Source of the DNA: Malacoraja senta
Lineage: Eukaryota
Length of the DNA stretch: 64,000 nucleotides
Reading direction: 5' to 3'
Assembly (NCBI GenBank): GCA_038087875.1
Contig: CM075994.1
Span: forward strand, 9,612,001 to 9,676,000
In this document: piece after piece, positions 26,529 to 63,638 of the stretch
Position numbering within the stretch: position 1 is the first letter of the stretch
Layout: each line of letters starts with the position of its first letter
Program-made: the position numbers and the translations under genes
Notes under the pieces: generated by a model
Databases searched by the model: none
What the model was told of the DNA's origin: nothing
Seen by the model: the letters and a program-made list of their open reading frames with translations, nothing else

Positions 26529-27659
26529 TAAGTCTTTGGAGTGTGGGAGGAAACCGAATCTCGGAGAACCACGCAGATCACGGGAGAAACGTACGAACTC
26601 CGTACAGACAGCACCCGTAGTCGGGATCGAACCCGGGTCTCTGGTGCTGCATTTTGCTGCAAGGCAGCAACTCTACTGCTGCGCCACCGTGATAGCACTT
26701 TGTGTCTATTTTCGGTGTAAACCAGCATACGCAGTTCCTTCCGACACAATCGCAATTAAATGTCAGCTGTTCAGCCACGGACACCTCGCCCAAATGCAGG
26801 GATATTCCTGGTGCACTGATTCACCGACCAGAAGCTCCTTTGCCCTGACTGTCCCCAAGTGGTGAAAGTTTTGCCGCGCAAAGCCGCACAATTTTGGCCC
26901 AGTGGGCATATGCAAGGCAGATGCAGTTTAATGTGGATAAATGTGAAGTTGTCCACTTCGGTGGCAAAAAACAGGAAGGCAGATTATTATCTGAATGGTG
27001 TCAAGTTGGGAAAAGGGGAAGTACAACGGGATCTGGGTGGTCCTTGTTCAGGTGGTCCTTGTTCATCACTCACTGAAAGTAAGCATGCAGGTTACAGCAG
27101 GCAGTGAGGAAAGCGAGGAAGTTGGCCTTCATAACACGAGGAGTTGAGTATAGGAGCAAAGAGGTCCTTCTGCAGTTGTACAGGGCCCTAGTGAGACCAC
27201 ACCTGGAGTATTGTATGCAGTTTTGGTCTCCAAATTTGGACATTCTTGCTATTGAGGGAGTGCAGCGTAGGTTCACAAGGTTAATTCCCAGGATGGCGGG
27301 ACTGTCATATGTTGAAAGAATGGAGCAACTGGGCTTGTATACACTGGAATTTAGAAGGATGAGAGGGGATCTTATTGAAACATAAGATTAAGACTAGAGG
27401 CAGGAAACATGTTCCCGATGTTGGGAGAGTCCAGAAACCAGGGGGCCACGGTTTAAGAACAAGGGGTAAGCCATTTAGAACGGAGATGAGGAAAAAACGT
27501 CTTCACACAGAGAGTTGCAAGTCTGTGGAATTCCCTGCCTCAGAAGGCGGTGGAGGCCAATTCTCTGGATGCTTTCAAGAGAGAGTTAGATAGATCTCTT
27601 AAAGATAGCGTAGTCAGGGGATATGGGGAGAAGGCAAAAACGGGATACGAATTGTGGAT

Positions 27660-27791
27660 CTTCTTCTTCTTGTGTATGGCGTGCACGTGTAGGACAACTT
27701 GTTCTATTTGATCTTATTTGATTGTGCATGCCGGGTTGATTGCATTCGTCGAAACAGGGCGGACCACGTGAAGGTTGCAATCACCCACCCG
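27660..27791 (-). mobile_element. Short non-autonomous retroelement headed by an HDV-like ribozyme, (GAA)n tail
   Basis: TSD ATTGTGGAT at 27651-27659 and 27793-27801; inserted in a CR1 3' end. Confidence 0.8.
27738..27791 (-). ncRNA. Minimal HDV/CPEB3-like self-cleaving ribozyme (family A, copy 1)
   Basis: P1 GGGGTGG/CCGCCCT (G1-U wobble), P2 GATTGCA/TGCAATC, P3 ACC/GGT, L3 TTCACGT, then GT-TTCG-A-CGAA. Confidence 0.8.
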
Positions 27792-28184
27792 ATTGTGGAT
27801 GATCAGCCATGATCACATTGAATGGCGGTGGTGGCTCGAAGGGCCGAATGGCCTACTCCTGCACCTATTGTCTAGGTGCAGGACTCCTGCACCTATTGTA
27901 CTTAGTTCAGTTCCAAACAGGCGATCTCATGCAGATGACTGTCAATGTGGGATATGGAAAATATTACACTTGAGCAAGTTCAACAATGTTTGTTTATACA
28001 CATCGCCATCTTCTGGTACAAAAGCACCACTGCAGATTTTTCACCCTCTTCCGAAACAGCTCTGCACACACTAAATGTTATTCCCTTTTCATGCATCTGC
28101 ACTCTGTAAACGGCTATATTGTAGTCATGTGCTGTATTTCCGCTGACTGGATCGCACCGAACAAAAGCTCTTCACTGCACCCCG

Positions 28185-62994: not shown

Positions 62995-63206
62995 ATTAAG
63001 GGTTTAGACACGCTCGAGGCAGGAAACATGTTCCCGATGTTGGGGGAGTCCAGAACCAGGGGCCACACAGTTTAAGAATAAGGGGTAAGCCATTTAGAAA
63101 TGAGACGAGGAAACACTTTTTCACACAGAGAGTTGTGAGTCTGTGGAATTCTCTGCCTCAGAGGGTGGTGGAGGCCAATTCTCTGGATACTTTCAAGAGA
63201 GAGTTA

Positions 63207-63260
63207 GGGGTGGGAGATTGCAACTTTCACGTGGTCCGCCCTGTTTCGACGAATGCAATC
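63207..63260 (+). ncRNA. Minimal HDV/CPEB3-like ribozyme (family A, copy 2)
   Basis: GGGGTGG GA GATTGCA ACT TTCACGT GGT CCGCCCT GT TTCG A CGAA TGCAATC; P3 keeps pairing through a U-G wobble. Confidence 0.8.
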
Positions 63261-63344
63261 AACCTGGCGTGCACAATCAAGTAAGATCAAATAGAACAAG
63301 TTGTCCTACAACTTTAGGCTGTGCACGCCATACGCAAGAAGAAG
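63207..63344 (+). mobile_element. Short non-autonomous retroelement headed by an HDV-like ribozyme, (GAA)n tail
   Basis: Imperfect TSD AAGAGAGAGTTA / AAGAGAGAGCTT; inserted in CR1; homologous to 27660-27791. Confidence 0.8.
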
Positions 63345-63638
63345 AAGAGAGAGCTTGATAGGGCTCTTAAAGGTAGCCGAGTCAGGGGATATGGGGAGAA
63401 GGCAGGAACGGGGTACTGATTGGGGATGATCAGCCACGATCACATTGAATGGCGGTGCTGGCTCGAAGGGCCAAATGGCCTACTCCTGCACCTATTGTCT
63501 ATTGTCTAAAACGCTGGAGTAACTCAGCGGGACAGACGGCACCTCTGGGGAGAAGGAATGGGTGACGTCTCGGGTCGAGGCCCTTCTTGAGATTGTACAG
63601 CTATAGAAACCCAGACTTCTCTCCTTCAACCCTCTCAG

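What the first reader, a model, noticed from the sequence alone, without database searches (positions are those of the whole stretch)
63207..63344. Mini-retroelement family whose 5' end is G1 of a minimal HDV/CPEB3-like ribozyme (copies at 63207-63344 + and 27660-27791 -)
Seen in sequence: both copies are 130-140 bp, flanked by 9-12 bp TSDs, end in (GAA)n and show no Pol III A/B boxes. Their first 54 nt fit the nested double pseudoknot: P1 GGGGUGG/CCGCCCU with a G1-U wobble, P2 GAUUGCA/UGCAAUC, P3 ACY/GGU, L3 UUCACGU, then G-U-UUCG-A-C-GAA. The element boundary set by the TSD falls at the predicted cleavage site. Established: L3 UUCACGU and the CCCU-GU...C-GAA junctions match the mammalian CPEB3 ribozyme, and HDV-like ribozymes cap R2, RTE and trypanosome L1Tc/ingi elements and their short derivatives. 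Inference: this is a promoterless, SINE-like parasite that cuts itself out of read-through transcripts, with P4 shrunk to a UUCG-capped stub. I cannot check whether the family is already catalogued.
Basis: partly seen in the sequence, partly recalled or inferred. Interest (0 to 1): 0.92.

Follow-up and report, generated by a model that had tools for sequence, protein, structure and literature searches.

The report
Ribozyme-capped mini retroelement and its LINE
A 140-base jumping element present in thousands of copies starts exactly where a tiny self-cutting RNA motif should cut, and it turns out to be a shortened offspring of a full-size retrotransposon that starts with the same motif.

Summary
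Both window copies exist, each with a 9-bp target-site duplication (TSD) and a (GAA)n tail. The first 54 nt fit a P4-less HDV-like double pseudoknot.

The family is large. The own genome has 2482 exact hits to a 3' 35-mer and 1032 to the ribozyme core. In an unselected sample, 18 of 20 copies begin within 1 nt of G1, the predicted cleavage site.

New here:
- The element is a short internally deleted derivative (SIDE) of a single-ORF endonuclease/reverse-transcriptase LINE. Positions 9-81 match that LINE's 5' end; positions 100-138 match its last codons, stop codon, 3' UTR and tail.
- The long form carries the same ribozyme (U5-A32, J4/2 CUAA), and about 48 of 65 distinct loci also start at G1.
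- The ribozyme matches, segment by segment, the published layout of minimal "theta" HDV-like ribozymes of gut phages. Its only deviation is a U-U in place of the second P1.1 pair.
- A descriptor built from that layout hit once in the window and never in 20 Mb of simulated sequence.

Not shown: cleavage itself, RNA 5' ends, an intact partner copy, the LINE clade. Rfam models do not detect it.

Verdict: real, a new variant of a known kind (ribozyme-capped LINE plus SIDE).

The parts
63207..63260 (+). Copy 1, 54-nt minimal (P4-less) HDV-like ribozyme. P1 63207-63213 with 63236-63242. J1/2 63214-63215. P2 63216-63222 with 63254-63260. P3 63223-63225 with 63233-63235. L3 63226-63232. J1/4 GU 63243-63244. 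Linker UUCGA 63245-63249. J4/2 CGAA 63250-63253, with the predicted catalytic C at 63250. Predicted cleavage is 5' of 63207.
   Evidence: Segment-by-segment fit to the theta/minimal table of PMC10879173, supplement file 6.
63261..63287 (+). Stretch derived from the partner LINE's 5' UTR (element positions 55-81). It holds GGCGTGCAC, the 5' strand of a 9-bp stem.
   Evidence: Alignment to L114, L115 and L116. Fold.
63288..63305 (+). Junction stretch of unclear origin (element positions 82-99). It supplies the 5' strand AAGUUGU of an inner hairpin.
   Evidence: Not aligned to either LINE end. Hairpin predicted.
63306..63347 (+). Stretch derived from the partner LINE's 3' end: last codons, stop codon TAG, about 20 nt of 3' UTR (GCTGTGCACGCCATACGCA) and the (AAG)n tail.
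   Evidence: blastn of L002 reverse complement 863-898 against window 63306-63343, 89% over 38 nt. Alignments to L113 and L002. P0001 reads through its stop into the same letters.
63198..63206 (+). Upstream target-site duplication of copy 1 (AGAGAGTTA).
   Evidence: Host-repeat copies without the insertion run straight on at 63207 (loose ends 'behind').
63348..63356 (+). Downstream target-site duplication of copy 1 (AGAGAGCTT, 2 mismatches).
27660..27791 (-). Copy 2, an older copy of the A subfamily. The ribozyme is 27791-27738 with C in place of G1, and the predicted catalytic C is at 27748. It has a 12-nt internal deletion that removes the 3' strand of the inner hairpin, and a tail AGAAGAAGAAG.
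27792..27800 (-). Upstream TSD of copy 2 (ATCCACAAT).
27651..27659 (-). Downstream TSD of copy 2 (ATCCACAAT, perfect).

Best explanation
The element is a roughly 140-nt non-autonomous retroelement made by internal deletion of a single-ORF LINE of about 3.3 kb (endonuclease + reverse transcriptase + C-terminal Cys/His motif). It keeps only what an RNA needs to be copied.

1. The LINE's first ~81 nt, which begin with a 54-nt P4-less HDV-like ribozyme.
2. The LINE's last ~40 nt: final codons, stop, short 3' UTR and (GAA)n tail.

Proposed mechanism:
- A copy lying in any transcribed region is read through.
- The ribozyme folds and cuts 5' of G1, which gives the RNA its exact 5' end.
- The LINE's reverse transcriptase recognises the shared 3' end and tail and copies the RNA into a nicked target (target-primed reverse transcription). 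This leaves 7-13 bp TSDs.

Shown: family structure, boundaries, TSDs, homology to both LINE ends, the same ribozyme at the long form's 5' end, and the fit of the fold.
Inferred: cleavage, read-through transcription, and use of this LINE's enzyme.
For: **Copy number**
- The own genome has 1032 exact hits to the 35-nt ribozyme core.
- It has 2482 exact hits to a 35-nt 3' stretch.
- All 40 best BLAST hits are 99-100% alike.

**5' ends**
- I took the first 20 hits of the 3' stretch on contig C1 without selection. Of these, 15 start at G1, 3 within 1 nt, 1 lacks 4 nt and 1 lacks about 20 nt. TSDs abut G1.
- Contigs of runs from three coded organisms (B, F, A) break into unlike flanks at 63206-63207; a metatranscriptome run (X19) has one such contig.

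**Fold**
- P1 has 7 bp, P2 7 bp and P3 3 bp, and a C stands in J4/2.
- The segment pattern |P1 7|J1/2 2|P2 7|ACC|T|TC|ACGT|GGT|P1' 7|G+1|linker 5|CGAA|P2' 7| matches the rows of the theta/minimal table. At least a dozen of the 127 rows I saw share ACC/GCC-T-TC-NCGY-GGT/GGC ... GA-TTTCGA.
- A descriptor built from that layout gave 1 window hit and 0 hits in 20 Mb simulated.
- Such P4-less ribozymes cleave in vitro, according to passages of PMC10879173.

**Parent LINE**
- L113 and L002 end an ORF (...CDCGHPDQTIPHIVNDC...STLDLQH*) followed by the SINE's last ~38 nt.
- Relative P0003 is 1019 aa with Exo_endo_phos and RVT_1 domains, on a 3344-nt contig.
- All three regions fetched upstream of endonuclease-domain matches carry the ribozyme and 5' UTR, followed by an ATG.

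**Long form**
- 110 loci hold the LINE-type 5' UTR anchor. Of the 100 listed, counting rows with identical flanks once, I read 65 loci; 48 of them start at G1 +/-1.

**Pair-keeping differences**
- U5-A32 in the LINE type versus U5-G32 in the SINE type.
- C19-G27 in the family consensus versus U19-G27 in window copy 1.
- C30 to U in 14 of 29 hits, which gives G7-U30.

**Function other than translation**
- The ORF-less derivative keeps the ribozyme, so its role is not only translation.
Against: - No Rfam HDV-like model (HDV, CPEB3 or others) matched, even at E up to 10 on 251 nt.
- Nested-only folding energy is no better than shuffles: z = +0.82 for the 54-mer and -1.22 for the whole element. 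Pseudoknots are not modelled there.
- The second P1.1 pair is U-U, not Watson-Crick as in the theta rows I saw.
- There is no true compensatory (two-sided) change. No second family with the same core and other helices exists in this genome (all 29 hits are point variants). Neither a search with relative P0003 nor the ribozyme-core pattern found anything in the metagenome collection.
- There is no RNA evidence. All runs laid were contigs, which cannot show RNA ends and break at repeat borders anyway.
- The three endonuclease-linked LINE copies that I could fetch start at ribozyme positions 10, 10 and about 12, not at G1.
- Some of the 110 long-form loci are other deletion derivatives, not LINEs.
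- No open frame above 460 aa was found among the 134 candidates scored (139 matches) for the partner's C-terminus. No intact source of enzyme is therefore shown, although SINE copies look young.
- G4 to A, which breaks a P1 pair, is seen at 4 independent long-form loci.
Confidence: 0.78

Rival explanations
1. The first 54 nt are an internal promoter, and G1 is a transcription start site. This could be Pol III as in classical SINEs, or Pol II as in many LINEs. On this reading the HDV-like fold is inactive or incidental.
For: - A sharp common 5' end is equally what a fixed start site would give.
- GTTTCGACGAA matches 6 of the 9 specified positions of a recalled B-box consensus.
- No T4 run lies inside the element.
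- No RNA data exclude this reading.
Against: - There is no tRNA, 5S, 7SL or snRNA likeness.
- By a recalled consensus, two of the five invariant B-box positions fail, and the A-box match is poor.
- The same GA/GT-TTTCGA-C motif is part of phage minimal ribozymes, so it belongs to the ribozyme core.
- The full descriptor is not expected by chance: 0 hits in 20 Mb.
- The same 5' end heads a protein-coding LINE about 3.3 kb long, which fits Pol III poorly.
Confidence: 0.08
2. Dual use: the same 5' segment is both an internal promoter as DNA and a self-cleaving ribozyme as RNA. This is what is described for Pr77/L1TcRz of trypanosome L1Tc and NARTc.
For: - There is precedent in PMC3383444 (abstract in the search listing) and PMC4035085 (passages).
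- It would explain how thousands of dispersed copies yield enough template without relying on read-through.
Against: - Nothing in the sequence was tested for promoter activity.
- The element starts with GGGGTGGG, which does not resemble an initiator (recalled consensus).
- A review reports that RTE and baggins elements with HDV-like ribozymes lack their own promoters (PMC6765202 passages).
Confidence: 0.1
3. The fold is a structural 5' module without cleavage. It could serve, for example, as an IRES-like element for the LINE, or as a 5' end signal for second-strand synthesis.
For: - HDV-like ribozymes of R2 and L1Tc have been proposed to promote translation initiation (PMC6765202 passages).
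- The LINE's ATG lies about 52 nt after the ribozyme.
Against: - The ORF-less 140-nt derivative keeps the whole fold, including the J4/2 C, and has spread to more than 2000 copies.
- The boundary sits exactly at the predicted scissile bond.
Confidence: 0.04

Closest known systems
R2 SIDEs and R2/R1 hybrid SIDEs of Drosophila (Eickbush & Eickbush 2012, PMC3414825; abstract read)
   Same: A non-autonomous element made of a LINE's 5' HDV-like ribozyme joined to a LINE 3' end. The ribozyme sets the 5' end of a co-transcript, and the 3' end is used for target-primed reverse transcription.
   Different: R2 SIDEs sit at one rDNA site and are called rare in that abstract. This family is dispersed, with variable TSDs and more than 2000 copies. 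Its parent is an endonuclease/RT LINE with a (GAA)n tail, and its ribozyme lacks P4.
L1Tc/NARTc, ingi/RIME and SIDERs of trypanosomatids (PMC4035085 passages; PMC3383444 listing)
   Same: An autonomous LINE and its truncated short partner share a 5' HDV-like ribozyme that cleaves at +1. Both are high in copy number and dispersed.
   Different: Pr77 is 77 nt, also acts as a promoter, and begins with C1. Here the module is 54 nt, G1-U, P4-less, and in an animal genome. No promoter role has been tested.
Minimal HDV-like / theta ribozymes of gut phages (Kienbeck et al. 2024, PMC10879173: passages and supplement file 6 part 1; Riccitelli et al. 2014, cited there, not read)
   Same: - The same segment lengths and nearly the same core letters: ACC-U-UC-ACGU-GGU.
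- No P4, with a U-rich linker ending CGA (UUCGA here against UUUCGA in those rows); 5-nt linkers also occur there.
- J4/2 is CGAA or CUAA, and P2 has 7 bp.
   Different: - The second P1.1 pair here is U-U, against U-A, C-G or G-C there.
- The context there is phage tRNA 3' ends; here it is a retrotransposon 5' end.
- That paper reports nearly 99% of theta and minimal hits in Caudoviricetes phages and only 12 theta hits in bacterial genomes; the passage gives no count for the eukaryotic genomes searched (human, mouse, protists).
Mammalian CPEB3 ribozyme
   Same: - L3 UUCACGU lies at positions 20-26 (mouse primer GTTCACGTCGCGGCC, 18 nt from the cleavage site; PMC10919898).
- It starts with a G run (blocking oligo in PMC6326823).
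- By recall: J1/4 GU, J4/2 CGAA, a U-U in P1.1, and the same lengths of all segments up to position 38.
   Different: CPEB3 has a P4 hairpin, is a single-copy intronic sequence of mammals, and is not at a retroelement boundary. The Rfam CPEB3 model does not match this element.
RTE and baggins LINEs with HDV-like ribozymes (Ruminski et al. 2011; not held; described in review PMC6765202)
   Same: Promoter-less LINEs processed from co-transcripts by a 5' HDV-like ribozyme. The partner LINE here has a comparable single ORF and very short UTRs.
   Different: The clade of the LINE here is not determined. Those ribozymes were not described as P4-less in the texts I could read.

Membership tests
HDV-like self-cleaving ribozymes (defined by fold) | Nested double pseudoknot: P1 and P3 nested, P2 pseudoknotted, P1.1 between L3 and J1/4 | tested here: met
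   P1 has 7 of 7 pairs, P2 7 of 7, P3 3 of 3. P1.1 is C22-G37 plus U21-U38. The definition is taken from PMC4908430 passages.
HDV-like self-cleaving ribozymes (defined by fold) | Cleavage site at the first nucleotide of P1; catalytic C in J4/2 | tested here: inconclusive
   G1 is the element boundary in 18 of 20 unselected copies, and C44 is present (63250). Cleavage itself was not observed.
HDV-like self-cleaving ribozymes (defined by fold) | Divalent-ion-dependent self-scission giving a 5'-OH product | not testable with these tools
   Needs a bench assay. The laid runs were contigs only.
Rfam HDV-like families (HDV, CPEB3, drz families) | Score at or above the covariance-model threshold | tested here: not met
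   0 matches at gathering score on the window. No HDV-like family at E up to 10 on 63150-63400.
Minimal HDV-like / theta ribozymes | No P4; 5-8 nt linker between P1.1' and J4/2; segment layout of the published table | tested here: met
   All 13 segments fit in length. The letters of P3, L3 and J4/2 fall within those seen in the table.
Minimal HDV-like / theta ribozymes | Two complementary P1.1 pairs (CC/GG, UC/GA, GC/GC in the rows seen) | tested here: not met
   UC/GU gives C-G plus U-U. The published descriptor itself is a picture that I could not read.
Minimal HDV-like / theta ribozymes | Phage context, cleavage site next to a tRNA 3' end | tested here: not met
   No tRNA. The context is a retroelement 5' end in a 1.94-Gb eukaryotic genome.
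CPEB3 ribozyme | Intron of the mammalian CPEB3 gene, with a P4 hairpin | tested here: not met
   Thousands of dispersed copies. No P4. Only the core letters are shared.
SIDE (short internally deleted element of a LINE) | 5' end homologous to the parent LINE's 5' end | tested here: met
   Element positions 9-81 align to L114, L115 and L116, which lie upstream of endonuclease-domain matches.
SIDE (short internally deleted element of a LINE) | 3' end homologous to the parent LINE's 3' end; TSDs; no ORF | tested here: met
   Positions 100-138 align to the end of the ORF plus the 3' UTR in L113 and L002. TSDs of 7-13 bp.
SIDE (short internally deleted element of a LINE) | Mobilised by the parent's enzyme | not testable with these tools
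   No intact parent copy was seen among the 134 candidates scored (139 matches).
Pol III SINE (tRNA-, 5S- or 7SL-derived head) | Head related to a Pol III gene with A and B boxes | tested here: not met
   ARAGORN found 0 genes. Rfam at E up to 10 gave only a chance snoRNA hit. Box comparison was by eye against recalled consensus.

The most novel reading that the evidence does not exclude
The minimal, P4-less HDV-like ribozyme is not a phage speciality. It is the working 5' processing module of an animal LINE and its high-copy offspring. The core is letter for letter that of the mammalian CPEB3 ribozyme: L3, J1/4, J4/2 and all segment lengths up to position 38. The CPEB3 ribozyme could therefore descend from an ancient insertion of such a LINE or SIDE 5' end that later gained or kept a P4 hairpin.
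Probability: 0.12. Interest if true: 0.85.

Novelty: new variant of a known kind. Interest (0 to 1): 0.62.

Why it matters
LINEs capped by an HDV-like ribozyme, and their short deletion derivatives, are known from insects and trypanosomes. This case adds three things.

1. It is a P4-less "minimal" ribozyme in an animal retrotransposon. The paper I read places nearly 99% of that class in gut phages.
2. It is about the smallest conceivable LINE parasite: ribozyme plus about 27 nt of 5' UTR plus about 40 nt of 3' end. It has nonetheless reached more than 2000 copies, some 99-100% alike.
3. Its core is identical in its unpaired letters to the CPEB3 ribozyme, as far as I could check. This gives a concrete candidate for where that mammalian ribozyme came from.

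It also offers a compact natural 5' processing and retrotransposition cassette for study.

Tried and rejected
**Folding and first descriptor**
- Rfam at gathering score and at E up to 10 gave nothing relevant.
- Nested-only folding was not better than shuffles.
- My first loose descriptor gave 15 start sites on the window's two strands, so I discarded it as unspecific.
- A shuffle script timed out. I replaced it with a Markov simulation.

**Earlier notes**
- Earlier notes of this scan held nothing.

**Search for a parent LINE with the identical ribozyme or the identical 3' domain**
- Searches gave only indel variants, subfamilies and singletons.
- L053 looked like a LINE 5' end but is a chimera with another high-copy repeat, followed by an unrelated L1-like element.
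- L038 and L041 are rearranged copies.
- No (GAA)4 run exists elsewhere in the window.

**Search for other families with the same core**
- In the own genome, one search gave 29 hits, all point variants of this family.
- In metagenome contigs, a search with relative P0003 and the ribozyme-core pattern both gave nothing.

**Sequencing runs**
- Runs of six coded organisms hold the element.
- The four runs laid were contigs only. They give no RNA starts, no evidence of transcription and no cleavage evidence.
- Whether runs X15-X18 are RNA at all is a guess in the listing.

**Other**
- The protein atlas did not resolve the LINE clade.
- Ruminski et al. 2011 is not held.
- The published theta descriptor is a picture.
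- Literature searches found no report of this family or of a P4-less HDV-like ribozyme in a retrotransposon.
- Repbase and Dfam could not be consulted.

Full report
**1. The observation**

The 35-nt core TTCACGTGGTCCGCCCTGTTTCGACGAATGCAATC occurs exactly twice in the window and in none of 100 shuffles.

Copy 1 starts at 63207. It is flanked by AGAGAGTTA (63198-63206) and AGAGAGCTT (63348-63356).

Copy 2 lies on the minus strand at 27791-27660. It has a perfect 9-bp duplication ATCCACAAT, a 12-nt internal deletion, and C in place of G1.

- P1 G1-G7 with C30-U36, which includes the G1-U36 and U5-G32 wobbles
- P2 G10-A16 with U48-C54
- P3 A17-U19 with G27-U29
- L3 UUCACGU
- then GU, UUCGA and C44-G-A-A

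**2. Size of the family and where its copies begin**

The window lies in a 1.94-Gb genome of 6182 contigs.
- A BLAST search of the 138 nt gave 657 first-look candidates. All 40 scored were 99-100% identical.
- Exact-pattern counts are 1032 for the ribozyme core and 2482 for a 35-nt stretch of the 3' half. The core holds four CpGs, so a lower count is expected even if all copies are full length.

For an unselected view I fetched the first 20 hits of the 3' stretch on contig C1.
- 15 begin at G1.
- 3 begin within 1 nt (L094, L095, L104).
- L105 lacks 4 nt and L103 lacks about 20 nt.
- Duplications of 7-13 bp abut G1 on one side and follow the (GAA)n tail on the other.

The 21 of 30 BLAST-selected loci that held an exact 18-mer show the same picture. 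That sample is biased towards full-length copies.

Runs of six coded organisms hold the element's sampled words: 13 of 13 words in organisms A to E, and 0.77 of them in F. Contigs of runs from organisms B, F and A break into unlike flanks at 63206-63207; a metatranscriptome run (X19) has one such contig.

The G at 63281 marks a minor young subfamily. A is the majority letter in those runs and in 91 of the first 100 genomic hits.

**3. Is the fold more than chance?**

Standard tools do not see it.
- There is no Rfam match at gathering score on the window.
- No HDV-like family matches at E up to 10 on 251 nt.
- Nested-only folding is no better than shuffles. Those folds do, however, predict P1 in the 54-mer and P2 in the whole element. 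The two helices can coexist only as a pseudoknot.
- My first loose descriptor hit 15 start sites on the window's two strands and was useless.

The decisive comparison came from a supplement. File 6 of Kienbeck et al. 2024 (PMC10879173, part 1 read) lists minimal "theta" HDV-like ribozymes cut into segments. The element reads:

|GGGGTGG|GA|GATTGCA|ACC|T|TC|ACGT|GGT|CCGCCCT|GT|TTCGA|CGAA|TGCAATC|

- Every segment has a length seen in that table.
- P3, L3 and J4/2 use letters seen there.
- At least a dozen of the 127 rows shown share ...ACC or GCC|T|TC|NCGY|GGT or GGC|...|GA|TTTCGA|....
- The one deviation is the second P1.1 pair: U-U here, against U-A, C-G or G-C there.

A descriptor written from this layout, with that one pair relaxed, found 63207 and nothing else in the window. 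It found nothing in 20 Mb of first-order Markov sequence, where the 13-nt core regex alone occurred 33 times. Copy 2 fails the descriptor only because G1 is lost.

The paper states that minimal variants lack the P4 domain, cleave in vitro, are inactivated by C-to-U, and are almost confined to Caudoviricetes phages (passages).

The CPEB3 likeness is partly confirmed.
- A mouse primer, GTTCACGTCGCGGCC, said to lie 18 nt from the cleavage site, puts UUCACGU at positions 20-26 as here (PMC10919898).
- A blocking oligo shows that the human ribozyme starts with a G run (PMC6326823).
- The rest of the CPEB3 comparison is from recall.

**4. The parent LINE**

Searches for a long element carrying the identical ribozyme or the identical 3' domain gave only variants and singletons. 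One apparent lead, L053, is a chimera with another abundant repeat.

A search that allowed a changed base near the 3' end gave hits with a different upstream sequence. L113 shows an ORF end...SPACDCGHPDQTIPHIVNDC...AWMSTLDLQH, then stop TAG, then GCTGTGCTCGCCATACGCA(AGA)n. L002, fetched earlier, holds 915 nt of a degenerate copy of the same element. Its last 36 nt align to window 63306-63343 at 89% over a 38-column alignment.

Database relatives:
- P0001: 292 aa, 88% identity. It reads through the stop into letters that are exactly the SINE's 3' UTR.
- P0002: a teleost eel protein named "Reverse transcriptase", 80% identity.
- P0003: 1019 aa, with Exo_endo_phos and RVT_1 domains, from a 3344-nt contig, 63% identity.

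A search of the own genome with the first 226 residues of P0003 found few copies that reach the N-terminus. I fetched the three regions upstream of such copies. All three read ...GATTGCAACCTTCACGTGGTCCACCCTGTTTCGACTAATGCAATCAACCCGACGTGCACAAACAAATAGATGTAGTG...ATGCCAC... That is the ribozyme, about 52 nt of 5' UTR, and then an ATG. These three copies are cut short at ribozyme positions 10, 10 and about 12.

A pattern anchored in the LINE-type 5' UTR, with 78 free places upstream, found 110 loci. I read the 100 listed rows and counted rows with the same 12-nt flank once. That gave 65 loci:
- 48 start at G1 +/-1, with unlike flanks
- 11 are cut within the first 17 nt
- 6 show no ribozyme or only its end

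At least one of these loci is another deletion derivative rather than a LINE. It directly abuts a tail hit. L112 is a third kind of derivative. Internal deletion has therefore happened more than once.

Pairwise alignments place SINE positions 9-81 on the LINE 5' end and positions 100-138 on its 3' end. Positions 82-99 are unassigned.

**5. What the variants say about the fold**

The LINE type has A32, which gives U5-A32, and J4/2 CUAA, which is the commonest J4/2 in the theta table. The SINE type has G32 (U5-G32) and CGAA.

The family consensus has C19-G27 where window copy 1 has U19-G27. Among copies with a changed first P1' base, 14 of 29 have U30, which keeps G7-U30.

These are one-sided, pair-keeping changes, not compensatory ones. 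G4 to A, which breaks a pair, occurs at four independent long-form loci. Old copies show CpG decay in the core, for example TCAACAAA, as expected for dead copies.

No second family with the same core and different helices was found in this genome. In the metagenome collection, neither a search with relative P0003 nor the ribozyme-core pattern found anything.

**6. Mechanism proposed**

- Shown: architecture, boundaries, parentage.
- Inferred: a copy is transcribed as part of a longer RNA. The ribozyme cuts 5' of G1. The LINE enzyme binds the shared 3' end and tail and primes on a nicked, often A/G-rich, target.

In the SINE, GGCGUGCAC (from the LINE 5' UTR) pairs with GUGCACGCC (from the LINE 3' UTR). 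Together with an inner 7-bp hairpin this forms a compact 3' domain. Whether that matters is unknown.

The ORF-less derivative retains the ribozyme, which argues for a role in RNA processing rather than only in translation.

An unresolved point: none of the 134 candidates scored (139 matches) for the partner's C-terminus has an open frame above 460 aa, yet the G-subfamily copies are 99-100% alike. Only the best candidates were scored, so intact copies may have been missed. Alternatively, a related LINE supplies the enzyme.

**7. Comparison with what is known**

- Eickbush and Eickbush 2012 describe the same design in Drosophila R2 SIDEs (abstract).
- Trypanosome L1Tc/NARTc and SIDERs share a 5' HDV-like ribozyme that cleaves at +1 (passages).
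- A review notes RTE and baggins elements with HDV-like ribozymes that lack promoters, and says that some LINEs and SINEs of metazoans use such ribozymes (PMC6765202).

So the kind is known. What differs is the P4-less core in an animal retrotransposon, the extreme compactness and copy number of the derivative, and the CPEB3-identical core.

Four literature searches found no description of this family or of a P4-less HDV-like ribozyme in a retrotransposon. Repbase and Dfam could not be checked, and Ruminski et al. 2011 could not be read.

**8. Verdict**

I put 0.78 on a self-cleaving ribozyme that defines the 5' end of a LINE-derived SIDE. The rest goes to a promoter-defined start, dual use, or a non-catalytic structure.

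Novelty: new variant of a known kind. Interest: 0.62.

Noticed in passing
window 63100-63206 and 63348-63460; also 27560-27650 and 27801-27900: Both window copies are inserted into copies of other abundant repeats. Around copy 1, the contig depth of the host repeat exceeds that of the element in all four runs. Host-repeat copies without the insertion read straight across 63207.
   Followed up: partly
L053 1471-1760 (= L061 59-350): The ribozyme and the next 7 nt are joined to the inside of another high-copy repeat (2579 first-look candidates). This may be a template switch or a rearrangement. An unrelated L1-like element with a poly-A tail follows.
   Followed up: yes
G000:C1:198859107-198859252 (-); L112: At least two further kinds of internally deleted derivative of the same LINE exist. 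One keeps about 105 nt of the 5' end joined to TACAAC...tail. The other has a CT-rich linker.
   Followed up: partly
rows with flank TACCTGTCTAAT (about 25 small contigs): One long-form 5' end with the same flank recurs on about 25 contigs. It therefore sits inside a unit that was itself amplified (satellite-like or segmental duplication).
   Followed up: no
LINE 5' UTR (L114-L116) and 3' UTR (L113, L002); window 63266-63274 with 63321-63329: GACGTGCAC in the LINE's 5' UTR is complementary to GTGCACGCC in its 3' UTR. In the SINE the two form a 9-bp stem. This could be a 5'-3' contact in the LINE RNA, or the microhomology used in the deletion.
   Followed up: no
run X19, record 28: A 276-nt contig of a metatranscriptome run carries element positions 1-68 directly followed by a second copy that starts again at G1.
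   Followed up: no
P0002: A protein of a teleost eel is 80% identical to the partner LINE's C-terminal 149 residues. Relatives of the LINE family thus exist in a named teleost. Vertical versus horizontal spread was not examined.
   Followed up: no
A second, related LINE family (45-46% identity to P0001) has many copies without stops and with open frames up to 884 aa. It appears younger than the partner family.
   Followed up: no
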